From Mesotaenium endlicherianum (Eukaryota), in contig WELA01000930.1 of the NCBI GenBank assembly GCA_009602735.1, positions 1 through 64,000 on the forward strand: a DNA stretch of 64,000 bases. Reading direction: 5' to 3'. Every line of letters starts with the position of its first letter. Positions within the stretch are counted from its first letter, which is position 1. Under the pieces are notes generated by a model. It saw nothing but the letters and a program-made list of their open reading frames with translations, was not told the DNA's origin and did no database searches. Below, in pieces: positions 14,691 through 24,778 of this stretch. The translations under genes were made by a program, and so were the position numbers.

Positions 14691-15350
14691 TTAACTGAGC
14701 AGTCCAAAATGTAACTCGCCAAAATTCTGAAGCGAAGACAAACGTAAATCGGCCGCGCCCCATTTTTCTTCTTTTAATTCTGCAGCGGCGGGTACTACCA
14801 CGCATTTCATACGTGCTGCCTTGGCAGCAATCAATCCGTTGAAAGAATCTTCGAAACAAAGACAGGCAGTAGGATGGCTATTCAGTTCCTGTGCACAGTT
14901 GAGGTATACTTGCGGATGAGGTTTACCGTAATCGAGTAATTCGGCAGAACAGGCAGCGGAAAGAACATCTTTTATACCAGTCATGCGCACCACCAACTCA
15001 ATCAATTCCGGTGGTGAAGAAGTAGCCAGACCGATCTTGAATTCTTTTTTTAGGAAAAAATCAAAAATATAAGGTACACCCTGCATCACCCGTCCTTTGC
15101 GCTCAATTTTATCAAGTACAAGTGAAATGATCTTTTTTTCTGCCCGTAATTGTTCAGAAGGGTCGATTTTGAACCAGGCCAGCCACCATTGTACAAACTC
15201 TCTCGTACGCAAGCCGGTAGTGCTTTTGTATTGTTCATCGGTAAAGGATACGCTATAAGCTGCAAATACTTCTGATGCTGCTTCATTCCATAGTGGCTCG
15301 CTGTCGATCAGCAAACCGTCGATATCGAAAATAACGCTTGTTAACTGCAT
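14691..15350 (-). CDS. HAD-family hexitol/2-deoxyglucose-6-phosphate phosphatase (HxpB-like)
   Basis: FDIDGLLIDSEPLW, GKPHP, FEDS. Confidence 0.85.
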   Translation of the reverse strand: MQLTSVIFDIDGLLIDSEPLWNEAASEVFAAYSVSFTDEQYKSTTGLRTREFVQWWLAWFKIDPSEQLRAEKKIISLVLDKIERKGRVMQGVPYIFDFFLKKEFKIGLATSSPPELIELVVRMTGIKDVLSAACSAELLDYGKPHPQVYLNCAQELNSHPTACLCFEDSFNGLIAAKAARMKCVVVPAAAELKEEKWGAADLRLSSLQNFGELHFGLLS

Positions 15351-15424: not shown

Positions 15425-17401
15425 TTATTTACTCATGGCGAGCCTGAACCCGGTGGCATTGTTGCTGAAATCCAACTCATGTCCTTCGCGGTTGGATATG
15501 CGAGACGACCAGGATGATTGCATGAAGGAGCCGCCACGCAATACTTTTTGCGCACTTAACTCAGGGCCTATGGGATTGACACGTGTGCTATGGGAAAAAT
15601 AATCCTCTGCATAATAATCACTGCACCATTCCGATACGTTGCCACTCATATCGTAAAGACCCAACGGATTGGGCTTCTTACCACCAACCGGTGATGTTTT
15701 ATTGGCATTGTCTTTATACCACGCCACTTCGTTGGCATCCCTGCTGCCGGCATAGTAATATGATTTGTCTTCCAGCTTTCCACCTCTTGCGGCATACTCC
15801 CATTCGGCTTCTGTAGGCAGCCTGAATTTTTTGTTGGATAGTTTATTAAGCCGTTCAATGAAATCGTTCGCTGCTTTCCAACTGATCATTTCTACGGGAC
15901 AATTGGGACAATCCTTGAAGAAACTGGGATTATCGTCTTCCATAACCGCCGCCCAAATATGTTGTGTGAGTTCATACTTACTGATATAGAAACTATCCAC
16001 TGTAACAGTAATGGCCGGCTTTTCCCGTGTAGAACAACTCACGCCTACTTCATTGGTACAACCCATCGTAAACTGTCCGCCTTCTACCAATACCATGCTG
16101 CTGTCGAGCTCCTGCAAGGCCGCTGAAAGTGCTGCCGTACCATCATCAACATCATAATTGTTTGCTTTGAGCAGGGCCATAACTTCAGACCGGCTGCCGA
16201 ATTTGGTAAGTAACACCTTGAGTTGTTTTTTCTTTTCTATCCGGCTCATGATTGCAGGAAAGAACCGGGCTCCTTTTTCGATGAACAATTTGATCACATC
16301 GGTATCTGCATTGATGCATGCATGCGCCAGGGGTGTGGCGTAAATCTCTTTATTTTCTGCAAACCGGCCGCCGTAATTGTTGACGCCCACGCCGTGTTCA
16401 AAGAGGTAACGAAAAACAGTGGTATCGCTTTTTACATCGAGTGCATAATCGATGATCCTTTTGCCGCCGATGATCGCTTCTTCCAGGCTGTCTTTCCGGA
16501 TAAAAAAACCAATATCGCTGCTTCGCGATGCCTTCAATGCAATTTCGATATTATCGCTTAGCGGCGCTTTACCTGCCTGAACGGCATCAATGAAACGGTA
16601 AGATTCGTCCCTCGTGATCTTGTCCTGGTCAATTTTGATCTCTTTGAAGAAACGATCCCGTTCATCTTTCATGGTGAAAGCCACTGCAGAATCGGAATAG
16701 TTTTTAACCAGTGATGCCAGTTGATTCTTATCGTTCAGAAAAAGATCCCTGGATTTCAATACCTGGTCAGTAATACCGCTTTCGCCTTTCCTGATCTTTA
16801 TTATCAGCGTTTGCAACGCGGTTTTATCATTGAAAATTTGTTTGATCCAATCCCTGATGCGGCCCTCTGCTTCATTTAAAGAAGCAATATGTTGTTGTTT
16901 GAGCGCTTCCTGTGCTTCTTTTATCCTGCGCAATTCTTCGAGCTTTTCCTGGTGTAACTGATCATCTTTAACAGGGGTATCATCTACTTCCGGAAAAGTA
17001 ATAACGATATTACGCCCTGCGTCTTTATCCTGCACAACGAAAGAAGTATCGTACTGTGTTCCCTGTCCATCACTGAGTGAAATGCGCATTTCATCTGTAT
17101 TGTTGAGCGGGACCCGTTTAGACATCCCAGCCTTGATCTTACCTGCTTCGCTCTCATTGATACTTACGTTGATGGTAGTGCTTTTGCTGGCCTTGAGTAC
17201 CAGGTAAGCAAATGCACCTTCTTTTTTCTCTTCATTATCATCCCGGAATTTTACCTGCGGTTTAGTACCTGTTTTTTTCTTCGAATCAGTACCTGTCTTG
17301 GTATTGGTAGGGGCTTTGATGAGCTGGGCAGCAGCATCCATGACCATCACACAGGCAGCCAGTAAGAAAATGGATTTGAGTAAACAGCGCTTCATAAGCA
17401 T
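15425..17401 (-). CDS. Secreted protein: coiled-coil, ankyrin-like repeats and C-terminal FGE-sulfatase (SUMF1/CLec-fold) domain
   Basis: Signal peptide (..MDAAAQ); TPLAHAC..DVIKLFIEKGA ankyrin-like; GGQFTMG, RLPTEAEWEYAARGG, NPLGLYDMSGNVSEWC, RGGS, GFRLA. Confidence 0.82.
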   Translation of the reverse strand: MLMKRCLLKSIFLLAACVMVMDAAAQLIKAPTNTKTGTDSKKKTGTKPQVKFRDDNEEKKEGAFAYLVLKASKSTTINVSINESEAGKIKAGMSKRVPLNNTDEMRISLSDGQGTQYDTSFVVQDKDAGRNIVITFPEVDDTPVKDDQLHQEKLEELRRIKEAQEALKQQHIASLNEAEGRIRDWIKQIFNDKTALQTLIIKIRKGESGITDQVLKSRDLFLNDKNQLASLVKNYSDSAVAFTMKDERDRFFKEIKIDQDKITRDESYRFIDAVQAGKAPLSDNIEIALKASRSSDIGFFIRKDSLEEAIIGGKRIIDYALDVKSDTTVFRYLFEHGVGVNNYGGRFAENKEIYATPLAHACINADTDVIKLFIEKGARFFPAIMSRIEKKKQLKVLLTKFGSRSEVMALLKANNYDVDDGTAALSAALQELDSSMVLVEGGQFTMGCTNEVGVSCSTREKPAITVTVDSFYISKYELTQHIWAAVMEDDNPSFFKDCPNCPVEMISWKAANDFIERLNKLSNKKFRLPTEAEWEYAARGGKLEDKSYYYAGSRDANEVAWYKDNANKTSPVGGKKPNPLGLYDMSGNVSEWCSDYYAEDYFSHSTRVNPIGPELSAQKVLRGGSFMQSSWSSRISNREGHELDFSNNATGFRLAMSK

Positions 17402-17410
17402 GCAATCGGG

Positions 17411-18931
17411 TTATAGATAATTGTTCAGGTAAATATTGTCCAGCAAAGATTTTTGTTGCAGGAAATCGTATTTGTATCCCGATTCCTTGCGGATGAATTC
17501 GAATTTGATGTCACGGCCGTTTTCTGCATTTTTCAGTTTAATGCCAATGGTGCCATTCAACCTGTTTTCCACATTCACTTCCAGCAGAAATTCTGAGACC
17601 GGTCCAAAAGGCCCTGCTTTGATAGTGCCCAATTTGTGCAGGTCTTCCTGCGGATCCCAGAATTGACATAATTCAATCAAAACGAAATCGGTTTTGCTGG
17701 GGTTGATGCGATACACTTTTTTAGATGAAACAGGCAGGGGTATATTCCGGTGGATCAACAGATCGATTTGTTGCCTGTTGCTGTTCGATAATAATAAGCC
17801 AATATTATAGGTGCTAACACTTCTCAGCTCAATGGGTGTTACCAGCGAACTGCTGCCACTGCTGAACGAAGCAGCATAAAGGGCTGCACCTTTGGCCACG
17901 CTGCTTAAAGGCTGGTGATAAATGAGTTCCTGGTGCGGAGCGATCTTTTGCTTCCAGAAATTATACACCAGCTTGCTGCTCGATGTGCCGCCTATCAATA
18001 CCAGCTTACTGACATCGGTAAATTGCATACCGAGGGAACGCAAACACCTGTTGACGGCCTGTTCTGTTTTGGTAATGAGTTGGGTAGCTCTCGCAGCATA
18101 GCCGTCGTAATAGAAAGTAGATTCGAAAGCATCCCTGCCTATCATGATCCATTTACTGATATTGGCAGGAGTAGCTGCATCATTCAATTCTATTTTGATG
18201 TTTTCTGCAATTTTCTGAACACGGTTATTGGTGAGTTTATCGGAAGGGAAGGGTACGCCAAATGCTTTCTCATAGTCGGCCCGGATGGTTTCCTGTACAA
18301 TCTCATCGAACTCTTTTCCACCTAATTTGTTTACACCATCTTTGGCAATCACATTCAGTTGTGTGCCCGATTTGGTGATGAGTGTAAGGTCGAATGTGCC
18401 GCCGCCAAAATCATAAATGAGTATGATCTCTTCGTCTATTTTTTTGTTACTGCTCCCGTAAAACAGCGCTGCGGCCACGGGCTCTTCCACGATGGCGCTG
18501 AGCTCCAGTTCGGCCAGCCTGGCGGCTTCAATGACAGATTTCCTTTGCACATCGTTGTAATGGGCAGGCACCGTGATCACAGCCTGCTTGAAACCATCGG
18601 GCAGGTACAGCTCCGCATCGTTCTTCACTTTTCGAATAATCAGTGAGGCTACTGTTTCACTGAACCAGGCATTGTTGTCATCGTCGAAATAAACCGGGTC
18701 CTGCGTTCCGAAACTTCTTTTGAAATAGGAGATGATCTGTTTATCCGGCAATGATTCGTAAAGACTTTCTGCAAAGCCACCCGCATAAGCCCGGTTCCCT
18801 TCAATGATGGCAATGGAAGGTGTGATCTGCTGGTCTTTGTTGTTGGCGTCGGGTATCAGCACAGGGCTTCCATCCCTGCTGAGGGTGGCGGCTACTGTAT
18901 TGCTGGTTCCCAGGTCAATGCCCAATACCAT
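17411..18931 (-). CDS. Hsp70-family protein (non-canonical, short, no lid)
   Basis: GIDLGTSNT, VITVPAHYND, EEPVAAALFY, YDFGGGTFD, LGGKEFD, LIGGTS; 506 aa. Confidence 0.9.
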   Translation of the reverse strand: MVLGIDLGTSNTVAATLSRDGSPVLIPDANNKDQQITPSIAIIEGNRAYAGGFAESLYESLPDKQIISYFKRSFGTQDPVYFDDDNNAWFSETVASLIIRKVKNDAELYLPDGFKQAVITVPAHYNDVQRKSVIEAARLAELELSAIVEEPVAAALFYGSSNKKIDEEIILIYDFGGGTFDLTLITKSGTQLNVIAKDGVNKLGGKEFDEIVQETIRADYEKAFGVPFPSDKLTNNRVQKIAENIKIELNDAATPANISKWIMIGRDAFESTFYYDGYAARATQLITKTEQAVNRCLRSLGMQFTDVSKLVLIGGTSSSKLVYNFWKQKIAPHQELIYHQPLSSVAKGAALYAASFSSGSSSLVTPIELRSVSTYNIGLLLSNSNRQQIDLLIHRNIPLPVSSKKVYRINPSKTDFVLIELCQFWDPQEDLHKLGTIKAGPFGPVSEFLLEVNVENRLNGTIGIKLKNAENGRDIKFEFIRKESGYKYDFLQQKSLLDNIYLNNYL

Positions 18932-18933
18932 AG

Positions 18934-20616
18934 CTAAAGTTTTAAATCTTTTTCAATTGCTGTTACCATATTGTTGTACTGAACAACAAGTTTGTCTCGA
19001 ACCTGTGCAGCTGCCTGCACATTGCGCAGCAGCAGGTCCACGCTCATTTGCTGTTTCGCCTGTTGTTTTTTTTCTTCACGCATCCGGTTGGCTTTTTGCA
19101 ACTGTGCCTCCCGGATATTTTTCTCCATCTGCTGGCCGATATTCTGGTTGGTGTCTACCAACCACCGGGCAATATGCGAGGTCCAGTCTTGACTGCTGTC
19201 GCTGAACATGCGCTTTGCTTCTTGTTGCAGTAACTCTTTGGCTTTGTTCAGTTCTTTTTGAAATTCTTCCGCTCTCCTTTTGGGAATGCGTTTGCGTAAG
19301 TCGGATATGCCATAGCCGATCAGCGACAAAGAGATCAGTCCGGTGCTCACTTTAACCCACATGGCCATGTGCTTGAACAGGCTCATATCGCCAGCTGTTG
19401 CAATTACCGAGAGCGGCGCCAGCAATCCGCCGATCACCACTGTTAGTCCTGTATAATCTTTCAGCGCTACCAAATATTCCATAGTGCCTTTTTTAACGAG
19501 CTCACCAGTATAGGTTTTATTCATGTAGCAGAAAGAATGAATGGCCTGTTCTTTATCGGGGAAGAGGGGATAAATCCCCTCAGGATTCACCGCTTTAATA
19601 CCTTTGCTCCTGAGCTGTATGTTCGCCTGTGTAAGCATATCTTCAAAAGAACTTTTGATGAAAGCTTCGTCTTTGCCTAGTTCAGTCCTGATATTGGCTG
19701 ATACAGTAGCAATAAATTGTTCCAGGAAATCTTTAGGGATAGATGCATCCAGCTTCTCTTTTTTCTCCGCTACCGTTTTTTGTTCCAGTTCTGTGAGGCG
19801 ATTGCTTTGTTCAACGGCCACCATAGAAAAGCGGCCTGTATTGGGTTTGTTGAGGTCTTCGTATTTGGCAGTATAACTTTTTTCCAGTTCTTGTGCGGTT
19901 TTCCGGATGAGTTGCCTGAGGTTGATGGTCAGCTCGCTGTTGTTGAGCGCTTCCTCTTCTTTCCGTGTGATATGGGTATTCTGACTCACCAGTAGCTTAC
20001 GGGTTTGCGCGGCCCTGGTTTCCGATGCCAGTATCTCATCTAAAAAAAGGAAGGCCGGTCGGATACTGTTGAGACAGGATAGTTGTTGCAACTGCTCAAG
20101 CGAAGACGGATGAATATCAGCAGTGAGAATAGTTGAAAGGTGTCCGCTATTAACTTTTTCCGGCGGCAGGAAAAAAATCTTGACCGATTGTTCCGATTGA
20201 GCGATGAGGCTTTGAATGTTGTGGGTGTTTCCCAACAGGTCAACCAGGAACATGGCCCGGTAACCATTATTTTCTTTTTTGAAATAACGGATCAGTGCAT
20301 CACACTCCTGCATGGCTTCATCCCAGATGATGAATGCGATGGAAGGGATTGGGTCTTCAAAAACGCGCACCGTATAATTGAGTTCGTTTTTGATCAGGAG
20401 TTTATAAGGAGTTTCATTTTCCTGTAGCGATTGCATGATTTTTTTGCCTGCTGCACTAGCATTGGTGCAACAGAACAGGTCGATATGAAAAGCGGTGTTA
20501 TCGGCAATACGCCTGATTTTCCGGCCAGACTCTTCCAGGAAACCGGCGAAGCTGGATACAGGTAATTCCTTCAGTAATTCATTGAAACCATCAGCGATAT
20601 GAAGCAATTCTTTCAT
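18934..20616 (-). CDS. Coiled-coil membrane protein with dynamin-like architecture and degenerate G domain
   Basis: Long helical ORF with a hydrophobic hairpin (LTVVIGGLLAPLSVIA...GLISLSLIGYGI) and a C-terminal coiled coil. The ORF is solid; the function is inferred. Confidence 0.55.
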   Translation of the reverse strand: MKELLHIADGFNELLKELPVSSFAGFLEESGRKIRRIADNTAFHIDLFCCTNASAAGKKIMQSLQENETPYKLLIKNELNYTVRVFEDPIPSIAFIIWDEAMQECDALIRYFKKENNGYRAMFLVDLLGNTHNIQSLIAQSEQSVKIFFLPPEKVNSGHLSTILTADIHPSSLEQLQQLSCLNSIRPAFLFLDEILASETRAAQTRKLLVSQNTHITRKEEEALNNSELTINLRQLIRKTAQELEKSYTAKYEDLNKPNTGRFSMVAVEQSNRLTELEQKTVAEKKEKLDASIPKDFLEQFIATVSANIRTELGKDEAFIKSSFEDMLTQANIQLRSKGIKAVNPEGIYPLFPDKEQAIHSFCYMNKTYTGELVKKGTMEYLVALKDYTGLTVVIGGLLAPLSVIATAGDMSLFKHMAMWVKVSTGLISLSLIGYGISDLRKRIPKRRAEEFQKELNKAKELLQQEAKRMFSDSSQDWTSHIARWLVDTNQNIGQQMEKNIREAQLQKANRMREEKKQQAKQQMSVDLLLRNVQAAAQVRDKLVVQYNNMVTAIEKDLKL

Positions 20617-20628
20617 GATAGCTGTTGT

Positions 20629-21282
20629 TTAGAATACATCGATCACCACCGTTTTCATGTACTCGCTTTCTTCCACTTCCTGCACAATTTTATGTATGCT
20701 GGTATTATTCAACCGGATGATCAGTTTGGTAACGCCCACCTGTATGGTGTCGTTATTCCCGATCGTTACTTTCTGCGCAATCCTTTGGCTGTTGCCATTG
20801 ATATAAGTGCCGTTTTTGCTGGGCTTTCCTCCATTGCCGGTGGCATCATCGCTGATCACAATCTGCAAAGGATCTACATTGGTCACTTCAAGCAATGCAT
20901 GTGTTCTGCTTACATAAGGATCGTCATCCAATACAATGGTAGGACTGCCGGGCTGTGAATTCCTGCCAATGTAATTCTTGCCATAATACAAGGGAAAGGT
21001 TTTGGCAGATTGGTTCTCGGTATGCCGGATGAGCCAACCGATCTCTGTTTTAGCGGCAGTTGATGCTGGTTTCGCTTCAGATCCTTTCGCCCCAATGAAC
21101 TCTGCCCTCATCTGCTTTACTTTTTCGGTATTGGCAATGTGCAGCTGACGCAGGAATTCATTCGGTGCATTTTCAGAAAGGCGCTGAAAATAAGCTAGCT
21201 TATCGTTCAGGCGCACGCGGATATCGGCATCAGAAGCCGACTCGGGTAGCTCTAAAAATTCGAGCACTTCGTTTCTTGTCAT
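20629..21282 (-). CDS. FHA-domain protein with N-terminal J-domain-like helices
   Basis: FHA motifs IGR, VSRTHA, SKNGTYING; N-terminus VLEFLELPESASDADIR. Confidence 0.85.
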   Translation of the reverse strand: MTRNEVLEFLELPESASDADIRVRLNDKLAYFQRLSENAPNEFLRQLHIANTEKVKQMRAEFIGAKGSEAKPASTAAKTEIGWLIRHTENQSAKTFPLYYGKNYIGRNSQPGSPTIVLDDDPYVSRTHALLEVTNVDPLQIVISDDATGNGGKPSKNGTYINGNSQRIAQKVTIGNNDTIQVGVTKLIIRLNNTSIHKIVQEVEESEYMKTVVIDVF

Positions 21283-21324
21283 AATCACTGTATTTTAATG
21301 GCCACACGATTCCCTGTTACAGGA

Positions 21325-22290
21325 TCAATGGGGCTTGCCAGGTTGTTTTGCAACAGAATCTTGTTGCACCGCCTCCTTTTTCTGCGGGTGTGTCATCATA
21401 ATTGATTTACTGGTATCTGGCTTCATAGGGGAGGAAATCTGTGTATGGCGGTTACCTGATGATCGCTGGTAAGCGTACCAAGCTCCTGCTATCAATAATA
21501 ACAGAAGTAAAACGGGAAATAACCTGCTTTTTGCGGCAACCTTTTTTTTCAGGCTGTTTATGTGCAGGAGGTACATAGAATAATTGTCCTTTGTGTTATT
21601 GCGGCAAAGCGCATCTATGACCTCGCTGTAATTACTAACGGGGTTATAAGGAAATAATATTGTTGCAAAGTGATCTTCTGTGAATTGCTCCATCAGTCCG
21701 TCTGTGCAAAGCAGGAACCAATCATCTTCCCTGATATCGCTAAGCACGGTATAAGTAATATCGGATGGATGCGTATGTGTACTCAGGCTGCGGGTGATAA
21801 CATTCCGCTGCGGATGCACGAGGGCTTCTTTTTCTGTGATCACGCCTTGTGCAACCAGTGTGGCTACCAGTGAATGGTCTTTACTTTTATAAACGGGAAT
21901 GCCATTGCGAAGCTGGTATATCTTGCTATCGCCACACCAGGCGATATAGGCATTGTGCTGACTGAAGAGCAGCAAAGCAAGCGTAGTGCTGGTAGTTGCA
22001 GCCGCAGGGTGGGTAAGAATATAATCGTGTACCTGCTGCTGAAAGGAAGCCAGCGCTTCATCGAGTTTGTTTTTGAAAGCCTGCTCTGAATCGACCATCG
22101 CTGTGGCCAATATGTTATAATAACAACGCGTGGCTATATCAGAAGCCACTTCGCCAAAGCTGCTGCCTCCAACGCCATCGCATACAATGAACAATGGGAT
22201 ATCCTGCGGCAGGTATCTCTTAGGAAGAATGGCGTCTTCCAGGTTTTTTCTGCCACCGATTTCATTCAATGTGAATGCCCTGATGTTCAT
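21325..22290 (-). CDS. PP2C/PPM Ser/Thr phosphatase with C-terminal TM helix
   Basis: RKNLED, VCDGVGG, GDS, DHS, RNVITRSL, LCTDGL, DN; TM segment LFPVLLLLLLIAGAWYAY. Confidence 0.92.
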   Translation of the reverse strand: MNIRAFTLNEIGGRKNLEDAILPKRYLPQDIPLFIVCDGVGGSSFGEVASDIATRCYYNILATAMVDSEQAFKNKLDEALASFQQQVHDYILTHPAAATTSTTLALLLFSQHNAYIAWCGDSKIYQLRNGIPVYKSKDHSLVATLVAQGVITEKEALVHPQRNVITRSLSTHTHPSDITYTVLSDIREDDWFLLCTDGLMEQFTEDHFATILFPYNPVSNYSEVIDALCRNNTKDNYSMYLLHINSLKKKVAAKSRLFPVLLLLLLIAGAWYAYQRSSGNRHTQISSPMKPDTSKSIMMTHPQKKEAVQQDSVAKQPGKPH

Positions 22291-22305
22291 TGTTAGTAAT
22301 TGTTT

Positions 22306-24195
22306 TTATTCAGCTGGATCCGCTGCCAGCCTGAACCCGATGTTTTTATTTCTTTTGCTCATTACTTCTGCATTGCGTGCTTTGGCATGAACAAAAAAGA
22401 TATCATTCTCATAATCGCCGCCCCGCAACACTTTTCCCTGCATGGGGGAGGGTTGCAGGTACGGGCCATACCAATCTTCACACCATTCATACACATTGCC
22501 CAGCATATCATAGATGCCATGCGCATTCGCCTGCCGGGTACCCACCTGGTGCGCTTTTTTGTTGGAATTCGTAACATTCCAGCTAACAATATTCAATGCA
22601 GTTTGTTCTTCCGTAGCAGCAGTATTCAACGCTGCAAACTCCCATTCTGCATCGGCAGGTAAACGGAATTGTTTGAAAGGAAATGTTTTGCCTTGTGCTT
22701 TCATTGCCGATAACAGTTTGTTGAGTTGCGCAATGAAAGCTTTCGCATCTTCCCATGAAATACTGTCGGCCGGGAAAAGCGATAGGCTGGTATCTGTGTA
22801 GCGGTTGTCTTTCATGATCGTTTTCCACTCAGCCTGTGTCAGCTCATAGGCATCGAGCAGGAAAGGTTTTACAGTAACGGGATGCTCCGGACCATCGAGG
22901 TTCCGTTTGGGATCATTGGTGCCCATGGTAAAACTGCCTCCCCGGATATATTTCATAGAGGAAGCCAATGCAGACAATACCTGTTCCTGTTTTGTATCTA
23001 CTATGGATTTATTGATAAGATTGCCCGGTGCAAAATATTTGCTGTATGCCCAGTATCCGAATCCCGCCATTGCGAGTACTATCACTATTGAAAACAACAC
23101 GGCCCCTGTTTTTTTCTTTTTAACAGGTACTGTTTCCAGTTCTTTCGGCTTCTTTGTTTTCACGATAGTCACTGCGCCATTGCTTTCATCTGGCACGATA
23201 TGTTCGGCGGTCTTTTTTTTGCCTGCCTGCTTTTTACTCTTAGCAATATGAGTGGCTACCGGTATGGAAATTTCCAGTGTTTCATCGTTGGAATCAGTGG
23301 AAGTACCAACAAAATGCAGCAACGCTGTGGATTGATCCTGCTGGTTTTTGAAAAGACCGATCAATTCATCGATGTTGCTGGTCCGTTTGTTGGCATCGGA
23401 AACAATGCATTTGCGCAGTACCGACCTGAAAGGCTCTTCCAGTTTATCCAACCTATCACCAATGCCTTCAGCATTGACGATCTTAGATATCATTTGCGCG
23501 GCCGATGTATCGCCGGAACGGGAACCAAAAAGCATATTGCCCGTGAGCAGGTAATAGGCAGTAACGCCAAAAGCCCAGATATCTACATTATAACTGATCT
23601 TTTTATTGATGCCATACTTTTCCGGGTTGAATTGCTCGGGCGCCATGTATTCAATAGTACCCAGGAGTATGGAGGCGCTGGCCTGGCTGGAATCGGCATT
23701 CTTGCTGATACCAAAGTCGGCGATCTTGGCCACCAGCCTGTTCTGCTTATCCCGTCCCAGCAGGATATTCTGCGGCTTAATGTCGCGATGGATCATGCCC
23801 TCATTGTGCAGGTATTTCAATCCCTCCAATACATCAATCAACAATTTTTTGAGTTGCTCGGTGGTGAGCGGATGCTGGCTCATATAGGTCTTGAGCTGAC
23901 CTTCCTGCACAAATTCCATCACACCGATCTGCACGTCTTCTTCCTGGCCATGCAAATTGCGGCTGGCCAGGGTTTCCACACCATAATATTTAACGATGTT
24001 GGGATGAGATAAAGTGATGGCTTTTTTGATCTCGTTGATGATGGTGTACTTGTTGGACTGCTCCTGCGGATGGAAGAACTTCAAAGCCACCGGCATTTCC
24101 AGTATCTTGTCATACGCTTTGTAAACGGTAGCAAAGCCACCTTTCCCCAGCAGATCCATTTGCGGATCATAGACGTATTTGTTCAGTATTTCCAT
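22306..24195 (-). CDS. Hanks-type Ser/Thr kinase - TM - FGE-sulfatase domain fusion
   Basis: LGKGGFATVY, VALK, HRDIKPQN, DFG, YMAPE, DIWAFG; TM AVLFSIVIVLAMAGFGYW; GIYDMLGNVYEWC, GFRLA. Confidence 0.93.
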   Translation of the reverse strand: MEILNKYVYDPQMDLLGKGGFATVYKAYDKILEMPVALKFFHPQEQSNKYTIINEIKKAITLSHPNIVKYYGVETLASRNLHGQEEDVQIGVMEFVQEGQLKTYMSQHPLTTEQLKKLLIDVLEGLKYLHNEGMIHRDIKPQNILLGRDKQNRLVAKIADFGISKNADSSQASASILLGTIEYMAPEQFNPEKYGINKKISYNVDIWAFGVTAYYLLTGNMLFGSRSGDTSAAQMISKIVNAEGIGDRLDKLEEPFRSVLRKCIVSDANKRTSNIDELIGLFKNQQDQSTALLHFVGTSTDSNDETLEISIPVATHIAKSKKQAGKKKTAEHIVPDESNGAVTIVKTKKPKELETVPVKKKKTGAVLFSIVIVLAMAGFGYWAYSKYFAPGNLINKSIVDTKQEQVLSALASSMKYIRGGSFTMGTNDPKRNLDGPEHPVTVKPFLLDAYELTQAEWKTIMKDNRYTDTSLSLFPADSISWEDAKAFIAQLNKLLSAMKAQGKTFPFKQFRLPADAEWEFAALNTAATEEQTALNIVSWNVTNSNKKAHQVGTRQANAHGIYDMLGNVYEWCEDWYGPYLQPSPMQGKVLRGGDYENDIFFVHAKARNAEVMSKRNKNIGFRLAADPAE

Positions 24196-24262: not shown

Positions 24263-24778
24263 TTATTTGGCATTGAGGAAAGCCTTCAATTCTATGGCAT
24301 CATTGGGTTTCATTTTGCCGGCCAGGATCAGGCGGATTTGTCTTCTCCGCAGGGCGCCATCGTATAGCAGTTTTTCTTCATCTGTTTCGGGGGTCAGGGA
24401 AGGTACCTGACGAGGCTTCCCATTGGGGTCGAGGGCTACGAAAGTGAAGAATGCTTCATTGCTTTCGTATTTATACTGATGGAGGAGGTCTTCTCCCCAT
24501 ACTTTGAGGTGTATTTCCATGGAAGTGTTGAAAGCCCTGCAAACCTTGGCTTCAATGTGCACTACATTGCCCAGTTTGATGGGATTTTTAAAGCTCAGGT
24601 TATCAACCGAAGCGGTCATGCTGGGTGCATTGCAATGTTTACCGGCAGCTATTCCGGCGGCAATGTCCATCCAGTACATCAGCCGTCCCCCCATGAGGTT
24701 TCCAAAAGTATTGGTATCGTTGGGCAATACCAGCTCGTTCATAGCGGTGAAACTCTCTGAGGGCTTTTTAACTTCCAT
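24263..24778 (-). CDS. Acyl-CoA thioesterase (hotdog, YciA-like)
   Basis: VLPNDTNTFGNLMGGRLMYWMD, TASVD, FTFVALD. Confidence 0.9.
   Translation of the reverse strand: MEVKKPSESFTAMNELVLPNDTNTFGNLMGGRLMYWMDIAAGIAAGKHCNAPSMTASVDNLSFKNPIKLGNVVHIEAKVCRAFNTSMEIHLKVWGEDLLHQYKYESNEAFFTFVALDPNGKPRQVPSLTPETDEEKLLYDGALRRRQIRLILAGKMKPNDAIELKAFLNAK

What the first reader, a model, noticed from the sequence alone, without database searches (positions are those of the whole stretch)
15425..24195. Six-gene kinase / PP2C / J-FHA / dynamin-like / Hsp70 / secreted ankyrin-FGE operon: candidate undescribed phospho-regulated chaperone and membrane-remodelling system
Seen: six co-oriented minus-strand ORFs with gaps of only 15, 42, 12, 2 and 9 nt, sitting between two housekeeping genes (acyl-CoA thioesterase and a HAD phosphatase) that have their own -7 boxes. 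Known: a Hanks kinase, a PP2C phosphatase and an FHA domain form a complete phosphothreonine writer/eraser/reader set, and J-domains activate Hsp70s. Inference: an extracytoplasmic cue is sensed by the two FGE/CLec domains. The kinase then creates pThr sites that recruit the J-FHA adaptor and, through it, a dedicated Hsp70 to a dynamin-like membrane protein. Envelope-stress repair, contact signalling or anti-phage/conflict roles are all plausible. I do not recognise this combination as a named system.
Basis: partly seen in the sequence, partly recalled or inferred. Interest (0 to 1): 0.9.

Follow-up and report, generated by a model that had tools for sequence, protein, structure and literature searches.

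The report
Kinase-switched Hsp70 and GTPase-dead dynamin operon
Six tightly packed genes, kept together in a few unrelated Bacteroidota, join a kinase-phosphatase switch of the kind that fires bacterial injection weapons after membrane damage to a dynamin-shaped membrane protein lacking its GTP-binding motifs and a private Hsp70 chaperone, which likely powers it instead; relatives add a long rod protein that this strain has lost.

Summary
The six genes, gaps and flanks are as described. The set is conserved: 12 loci (Chitinophagaceae and one Pedobacter) keep kinase, PP2C, J-like/FHA, the 560-aa protein and Hsp70 in order where the contig allows. Across 22 loci the 560-aa gene has its own Hsp70 beside it in 21. 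It has a dynamin fold (best Foldseek hits BDLP, Cj-DLP1/2, IniA, LeoA), but none of 161 full-length homologues has a P-loop in place. The J-like domain has xAP instead of HPD (14 of 14). The Hsp70 keeps its ATPase motifs but lacks the lid, the DnaK linker and the J-contact arginine (18 of 18). (1) Ten of the 12 loci carry a seventh gene, a 14-residue-repeat coiled-coil rod, half with a phage-fibre S74 chaperone; this lineage has lost it. (2) The same kinase/PP2C/J-FHA/FGE genes end T6SS clusters in two family genomes, like PpkA/PppA/Fha1/TagR, while 0 of 10 dynamin-operon genomes tested encode TssC. Best reading (0.45): an envelope-damage switch that sends an insulated Hsp70 to assemble or recycle a GTPase-dead membrane scaffold. 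No description was found; nothing functional is shown.

The parts
22306..24195 (-). Hanks Ser/Thr kinase (aa 14-273), one TM helix (aa 365-383), C-terminal FGE-sulfatase-like domain (aa 414-624), predicted periplasmic; swapped for MORN or Sel1 repeats in relatives
   Evidence: (GKGGF, VALK, HRDIKPQN, DFG, APE present)
21325..22290 (-). PP2C phosphatase with a C-terminal TM helix (about aa 251-272)
   Evidence: RKNLED, CDGVGG, TDG, DNYS
21283..21324 (.). 42-nt gap where 10 of 12 related loci carry the 14-residue-repeat coiled-coil rod gene; absent here
20629..21282 (-). J-like helical domain (aa 1-65, loop ENAPN in place of HPD) fused to an FHA domain (aa 80-192; IGR, SRTHA, SKNGT) and a conserved hydrophobic C-terminal tail
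18934..20616 (-). Dynamin-fold membrane protein without GTPase motifs: neck helix, shrunken alpha/beta pseudo-G domain (aa 41-168), helical trunk, hydrophobic hairpin/paddle (about aa 378-445)
17411..18931 (-). Dedicated lid-less Hsp70: ATPase motifs kept; lobe IB shortened; DnaK linker and J-contact Arg replaced
15425..17401 (-). Exported protein: predicted signal peptide, helical region, weak ankyrin repeats, C-terminal FGE-sulfatase-like domain (aa 435-655); TagR-like by domain
   Evidence: signal peptide read from sequence
24263..24778 (-). Flank: acyl-CoA thioesterase (4HBT), not part of the system
14691..15350 (-). Flank: HAD hydrolase, not part of the system

Best explanation
The operon likely encodes an envelope-damage response in which a membrane kinase/phosphatase switch would recruit, through a J-like/FHA adaptor, a private Hsp70 ATPase that likely assembles or recycles a dynamin-shaped membrane scaffold lacking GTPase motifs. 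Shown: gene order and conservation, domain content, intact kinase/PP2C/FHA/Hsp70-ATPase motifs, a dynamin-like predicted fold without G1-G4, loss of HPD together with loss of the Hsp70 J-contact Arg, linker and lid, purifying selection on all six genes, and reuse of the same switch genes in T6SS clusters. Inferred: (1) the two periplasmic FGE domains cluster on envelope damage and dimerise the kinase, as TagR does for PpkA; (2) phosphothreonine docks J-FHA and PP2C resets it; (3) the xAP J-like domain stimulates only the cognate Hsp70, insulating the pair from DnaK/DnaJ; (4) Hsp70 ATP hydrolysis replaces GTP hydrolysis in cycling the pseudo-dynamin on the inner membrane, which patches or reshapes the damaged site; (5) the rod of relatives is an accessory scaffold or tether that this lineage does without.
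For: Cognate Hsp70 lies beside the 560-aa gene in 21 of 22 loci; the 22nd contig ends inside the gene. Their trees agree (Mantel Spearman 0.93 on 18 loci, 0 of 2000 permutations; kin share history, so this shows co-inheritance only). Foldseek ranks 1-7 and 9 are bacterial dynamins (E 2e-6 to 2e-4). VIA lists MxB stalk, MFN2, dynamin and IniA at Z 10-11. All 6 Atlas feature rows shown with a Pfam family carry Dynamin_N or MMR_HSR1. The most conserved P560 columns are in trunk and paddle; window-versus-G699 dN/dS is 0.03-0.14 there and 0.44 in the pseudo-G domain. xAP in 14 of 14 J-like domains; no Arg at the DnaK J-contact position in 18 of 18 Hsp70s. J-FHA, kinase-FGE and PP2C end TssC/TssN/TssO clusters in G115 and G104, and those kinases fall inside the dynamin-operon kinase group (94/90, below the starred level). 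TagR has an FGE domain and membrane damage drives TagQ/R-PpkA-Fha1 (PMC13713981, passages). TssC was not found in 10 of 10 carrier genomes, against 45 of 301 family genomes.
Against: No interaction, activity or phenotype is shown. The J-like domain also occurs in 4 genomes (G104, G115, G185, G009) where neither the cognate Hsp70 nor the 560-aa protein was found, so it need not be this Hsp70's cofactor. J homology is weak: HH probability 43%, 28 columns, and the fold search was filled by FHA. Dynamin TM-scores are low (0.18-0.30), the top VIA hit is a designed helical bundle, and the N-domain matches receiver domains about as well as a small GTPase. Distant P560-Hsp70 loci (L017, L031-L036) show no PP2C or FHA gene in the DNA held, so the switch is not part of the universal core. 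The absence of T6SS in carriers is compatible with chance at a 15% base rate.
Confidence: 0.45

Rival explanations
1. Anti-phage or anti-invader defence: periplasmic sensors detect phage or a competitor, and the Hsp70/pseudo-dynamin pair blocks DNA entry, delays lysis or kills the cell.
For: Rare and patchy: 4 of 301 family genomes, 2 of 61 genus genomes, 1 convincing match in 401 phylum genomes. The sensor domain is swappable (FGE, MORN, Sel1). Hsp70, PP2C/kinase and FGS domains occur in GTPase-centred conflict systems (PMC7159879, passages and section 29).
Against: No PADLOC model matches P560, Hsp70, J-FHA or the exported protein; only generic kinase and weak PP2C hits. It sits at a fixed housekeeping site shared with L003 and L004, with ordinary GC and GC3. 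FGE domains are under purifying selection (dN/dS 0.05-0.09). No nuclease, NADase or pore effector is present.
Confidence: 0.2
2. A machine for building, holding or exporting the long coiled-coil rod (a tether, nanotube scaffold or contact device). Hsp70 and the pseudo-dynamin are its chaperone and membrane seat, and the window's operon has lost the cargo.
For: A 14-residue-period rod lies in 10 of 12 kinase-type loci and beside 2 distant P560-Hsp70 pairs (L032, L034). Five of the ten end in an S74-type chaperone (Pfam for L003, L005, L007 and G219; motif for L008), a trimerising domain of phage fibres (recalled). The T6SS parallel suggests a switch that assembles a structure.
Against: The rod is absent from G001 and the closed genome G699, while the same search finds it in 3 of 3 controls. 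All six genes stay under purifying selection between these rod-less lineages. The rod has no visible signal peptide.
Confidence: 0.2
3. Two independent modules share a promoter: a mobile kinase/PP2C/FHA/FGE cassette and an Hsp70/pseudo-dynamin pair, with no direct wiring between them.
For: The switch genes occur with T6SS without the pair. The pair occurs without the switch, with a TM-anchored J-like protein instead (L017, L031, L032, L034).
Against: The same xAP J-like domain accompanies the pair in both subtypes (16 of 22 loci; 5 of the 6 without it are contigs under 4 kb or cut near the gene). In this subtype it is fused to the phospho-reader. The order is kept down to 32% P560 identity.
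Confidence: 0.12

Closest known systems
T6SS threonine phosphorylation pathway of Pseudomonas aeruginosa H1-T6SS (PpkA, PppA, Fha1, TagR; PMC13713981, passages seen)
   Same: Membrane Hanks kinase, membrane PP2C, FHA protein and periplasmic FGE-domain protein; the same Bacteroidota gene subfamily ends T6SS clusters in G104 and G115
   Different: No TssC in the carrier genomes; FHA is fused to a J-like domain; the kinase carries its own FGE domain; the output genes are Hsp70 and a pseudo-dynamin; TagQ/S/T equivalents were not looked for
Cyanobacterial 'chaperone clade' of bacterial dynamin-like proteins (PMC5827413, passages seen)
   Same: A dynamin-like gene with a DnaK-domain gene directly downstream
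   Different: Those proteins were selected for an intact GTPase domain (GxxxxGKS/T); this family has none. The passages seen mention no kinase, phosphatase, FHA or rod.
Mycobacterial iniBAC envelope-stress operon (PMC5760070, passages seen) and tandem DLP pairs such as Cj-DLP1/2 (PMC6104087, passages seen)
   Same: Dynamin fold (IniA and Cj-DLP1/2 among the top Foldseek hits); a size-variable, dispensable companion gene (iniB); a dnaK-like gene in the M. smegmatis locus; envelope-stress role
   Different: Paired active GTPases under transcriptional control by IniR, versus a single GTPase-less protein under an apparent phospho-switch
GAP1-N2 GTPase-centric conflict systems (PMC7159879, section 29 read)
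   Same: Themes with Hsp70 plus DnaJ/GrpE, or kinase plus PP2C; membrane-proximal; FGS domains
   Different: Built on TRAFAC GTPases, GAP1 and FNIII repeats, none seen here; the Hsp70 and kinase themes are non-overlapping there; mainly Actinobacteria and Firmicutes; 'dynamin' does not occur in the main text

Membership tests
Bacterial dynamin-like GTPases | G1-G4 motifs (GxxxxGKS/T, T, DxxG, N/TxxD) | tested here: not met
   Of 161 full-length homologues, 4 match a P-loop pattern, none after strand 1; the N-domain alignment shows no conserved motif; no Dynamin_N among the 25 of 31 families shown for 42 members
Bacterial dynamin-like GTPases | Neck/trunk helical bundles with a membrane paddle behind an alpha/beta head | tested here: met
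   AF2 model pLDDT 84.6; Foldseek top hits BDLP, Cj-DLP, IniA, LeoA; VIA; Atlas; low TM-scores noted
Bacterial dynamin-like GTPases | Encoded as a pair with a second DLP | tested here: not met
   No second DLP seen in the 12 kinase-type loci. G001's three Dynamin_N hits are P-loop-only matches; two read as Era- and Der-like, the third was not opened
Bacterial dynamin-like GTPases | Nucleotide-dependent membrane remodelling | not testable with these tools
   needs liposome assays
J-domain proteins | HPD motif between helices II and III | tested here: not met
   A-P invariant and HPD absent in 14 of 14
J-domain proteins | J-domain fold/homology | tested here: inconclusive
   Three helices of J-like lengths; HH 43%, E 2.6e-4 over 28 columns; fold search dominated by FHA
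DnaK-type Hsp70 | Actin-fold ATPase motifs (GIDLGT, catalytic Lys and Glu, DxGGGTFD, GG) | tested here: met
   kept in 18 of 18 against G001 DnaK; Pfam HSP70 E 4e-57
DnaK-type Hsp70 | Hydrophobic interdomain linker, J-contact Arg, helical lid | tested here: not met
   all three replaced or missing in 18 of 18 (residue roles recalled); below NCBIfam DnaK cut-offs; separate clade from DnaK/HscA
T6SS threonine phosphorylation pathway | Membrane kinase + PP2C + FHA + FGE-domain periplasmic protein | tested here: met
T6SS threonine phosphorylation pathway | A T6SS in the genome to regulate | tested here: not met
   TssC not found in G001, G699, G219, G019, G157 or the genomes of L003, L004, L005, L007, L010; the family search rang in 45 of 301 relatives
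GAP1/DO-GTPase conflict systems | One or two TRAFAC GTPases with GAP1 | tested here: not met
   No GTPase family in Pfam/NCBIfam scans of the six genes; GAP1 not searched separately
Known anti-phage systems (PADLOC 2023, e.g. dynamin-based Eleos) | Match of core proteins to system models | tested here: inconclusive
   0 models for P560, Hsp70, J-FHA and Ank-FGE; generic kinase hits only; presence of Eleos models in the library not checked

The most novel reading that the evidence does not exclude
A dynamin-family membrane machine that has swapped its GTPase motor for an external, insulated Hsp70/J pair (xAP instead of HPD), gated by the same phospho-switch that arms T6SS: a second, non-injecting output of the membrane-attack sensor, which in most carriers also deploys a 70-110 nm coiled-coil rod, often with a phage-fibre chaperone.
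Probability: 0.3. Interest if true: 0.9.

Novelty: new variant of a known kind. Interest (0 to 1): 0.74.

Why it matters
GTP motifs are treated as the defining part of dynamins, and HPD as essential for J-domains. A family that has lost both in step with its own Hsp70 offers a direct test of whether a chaperone ATPase can power a dynamin scaffold and how an Hsp70/J pair is insulated from DnaK. It also suggests that the T6SS damage-sensing kinase module is portable and used by Bacteroidota both on T6SS and on a different machine. Cultured carriers exist (Sediminibacterium ginsengisoli DSM 22335, Pedobacter metabolipauper DSM 19035), and the natural six-gene and seven-gene versions make the rod's role testable.

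Tried and rejected
Assembly collapse as the cause of the missing rod: rejected. Four runs give one unbroken contig (possibly the source DNA), the closed genome G699 has the same junction, and no repeat array lies there. Rod elsewhere in the genome: not found in G001 by protein, S74 family or profile. Phage or plasmid carriage: no P560 relative in viral contigs or plasmids, single-protein queries only. Sequence link to solved dynamins: none by phmmer or profile. A second homologue search with distant members gave 5 hits and no Pfam domain. Expression: contigs of four RNA libraries cover scattered parts of the operon at low depth; no silent control was laid, so this shows neither transcription nor co-transcription. 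Retroelement-type hypervariation of the FGE domains: not supported (dN/dS 0.05-0.09); no search for a reverse transcriptase was made. Mutual exclusion with T6SS: 0 of 10 carriers is not significant at a 15% base rate. The sigma-70 promoter/terminator scan was uninformative. Complex prediction (Hsp70 ATPase domain with P560) was not available, so no verdict. The Atlas look-up of the rod did not complete. PMC8508118 (FGE-like T6SS immunity proteins) is not held; only its title was seen, in a reference list. Literature searches found no description of this gene set; subscription papers and supplements (such as the source data of PMC7159879) were not seen.
Full report
Observation. The six co-oriented ORFs and their gaps (15, 42, 12, 2, 9 nt) are real. 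They lie between a thioesterase and a HAD gene, each preceded by a TAnnTTTG box. No own genome is held; G001 is identical over 13 kb. In 5 of 5 congeners examined the site reads thioesterase, acyltransferase, HAD with no operon. L003 and L004 have the operon at this same site. GC and GC3 match the neighbours. It is therefore an old, patchily kept locus, not a fresh island. By the titles of relatives the host is a Chitinophagaceae member (inference).

The parts. The kinase has all catalytic motifs, one TM helix and a C-terminal FGE-like domain. The PP2C has its metal-binding motifs and a TM helix. The FHA domain has the GR, SxxH and NG motifs (motif roles recalled) and the FHA fold (Z 14.6, rmsd 1.9, 104 aligned). 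The last gene has a signal-peptide-like start, weak ankyrin repeats and a second FGE domain. Neither FGE domain shows Cys in the C-terminal RGG stretch (read), so a binding role is inferred.

The 560-aa protein. It has no Pfam or PDB sequence match. Its model (pLDDT 84.6, pTM 0.51, 42 sequences) has a short alpha/beta head, long helical bundles and a hydrophobic hairpin. Foldseek ranks bacterial dynamins first (BDLP E 2e-6; Cj-DLP1/2, IniA, LeoA), with TM-scores of only 0.18-0.30. VIA gives a designed bundle first (Z 12.1), then MxB stalk, MFN2, dynamin, Drp1, Fzo1 and IniA (Z 10-11); the head matches receiver domains (Z up to 9.4) and Arl13B (Z 8.4). The Atlas agrees on dynamin and shows Pfam-less look-alike clusters in Cyanobacteriota and Actinomycetota. 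A profile finds 273 representatives at E <= 0.001. Among 161 full-length homologues none has a P-loop after strand 1. The head is the least conserved part (22-38% identity against 44-66% elsewhere in three relatives; dN/dS 0.44). I call it a pseudo-dynamin.

Hsp70 and J. Against G001's DnaK, 18 of 18 operon Hsp70s keep the ATPase motifs but lack the lid, the VLLLDV linker and the arginine of the RRIVNEP stretch that contacts HPD (that role is recalled). They form one clade apart from DnaK and HscA. The N-terminal domain of the FHA protein aligns with DnaJ helices I-II and has an invariant AP where HPD would be (14 of 14). The homology itself is weak. I looked at this loop after an earlier AI note (e1-4432314) mentioned a TNAPT motif; the counts are my own.

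Conservation. Of 22 P560 loci fetched, 21 have the cognate Hsp70 next to it (one with a gene inserted; the 22nd contig ends in the gene), and 16 have the J-like gene. Twelve are of the window's subtype, with FHA fused to J (window/G001, G699, L003-L010, L015, L016; L007 and L015 are close kin, as are G001 and G699). The kinase is seen in 10 and PP2C in 11; the rest are cut by contig ends. The kinase's outer domain is FGE in 7, Sel1 in 2 and MORN in 1. Distant loci use a TM-anchored J-like protein. The system is rare: 4 of 301 family, 2 of 61 genus and 1 convincing of 401 phylum genomes.

The missing gene. Ten of the 12 loci have, before J-FHA, a 300-870-aa protein (one is cut by the contig end) with a 14-residue period (identity at lag 14: 0.33-0.71), few Pro, and no visible signal peptide. 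Five end in an S74 chaperone. Similar rods lie near two distant pairs. If fully helical they span about 70-110 nm. The window's lineage lacks the gene, for real, yet its six genes stay under purifying selection (dN/dS 0.00-0.20 outside the pseudo-G domain; one pairwise comparison).

The T6SS link. The J-like profile hit 8 of 301 family genomes. Four lack the pair. In three of them J-FHA closes a T6SS cluster (TssN and TssO in G185 and G115, TssC in G115 and G104); kinase-FGE and PP2C follow it in G115 and G104, plus a free FGE gene in G104. Only 3 of the 45 TssC-positive genomes had such a hit, so it is not general in T6SS of this family. The T6SS kinases group among the dynamin-operon kinases. 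In P. aeruginosa, membrane damage drives the FGE protein TagR to engage PpkA, which phosphorylates Fha1, opposed by PppA (PMC13713981, passages). No carrier tested has TssC (0 of 10), so here the switch must have another output; the adjacent genes are the obvious candidates. The same finding cuts against an obligatory J-Hsp70 pairing, since the xAP domain persists without the cognate Hsp70.

Mechanism and verdict. Most likely an envelope-damage switch routes a private Hsp70 to a GTPase-dead membrane scaffold (0.45). Rivals are anti-phage defence (0.2), a rod-building machine whose cargo is lost here (0.2), and two unlinked modules (0.12). An Hsp70 controlling assembly of a membrane-remodelling polymer has a precedent in chloroplast Hsc70 and VIPP1 (PMC12798727, search listing only). 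Dynamin-plus-DnaK neighbourhoods are known (PMC5827413, PMC5760070; passages), with active GTPases. Eight searches found no paper on this gene set. Earlier AI notes of this scan describe look-alike cores in other genomes; they are not independent support. Verdict: real, conserved, apparently undescribed; a new variant of dynamin-Hsp70 loci; interest 0.74.

Noticed in passing
L072:3001-10691, L074:40-14025, L075:5023-19992: Bacteroidota T6SS clusters ending in a J-like/FHA gene, two with kinase-FGE and PP2C: a candidate PpkA/PppA/Fha-type control of subtype iii T6SS. One search listed no paper on it; those papers were not read.
   Followed up: partly
L073:792-11781: An xAP J-like/TPR gene divergent from SrfB, Virul_Fac and S8 peptidase genes in G009, which lacks the cognate Hsp70 and P560.
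   Followed up: no
L037:1-1785, L038:2717-8491, L039:3-1226: Distant P560 genes with long low-complexity C-tails lie divergent from very long acidic decapeptide-repeat proteins; L037 also has two kinases, one with TPR and caspase domains.
   Followed up: no
window:15351-15424: The acyltransferase gene found before HAD in 5 of 5 congeners and in L003/L004 is missing here and in G699.
   Followed up: partly
window:20629-20660: J-FHA ends in a conserved hydrophobic strand (EYMKTVVIDVF-like in 11 of 11) that loosely resembles the DnaK linker that the cognate Hsp70 has lost; it might dock in trans.
   Followed up: no
L002:865-1848: G001 has a third, stand-alone FGE-domain gene elsewhere in the genome (Pfam E 5e-41); a probably related contig shares two 24-25-nt stretches with the operon's FGE genes.
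   Followed up: partly
L005:13242-21614: In Pedobacter the operon runs on into two unknown exported proteins, a TPR-like protein and a MoxR/vWA (Bat-like) set.
   Followed up: no
L049:127-2625: G219 has a further 832-aa Hsp70-domain protein unrelated to this clade.
   Followed up: no
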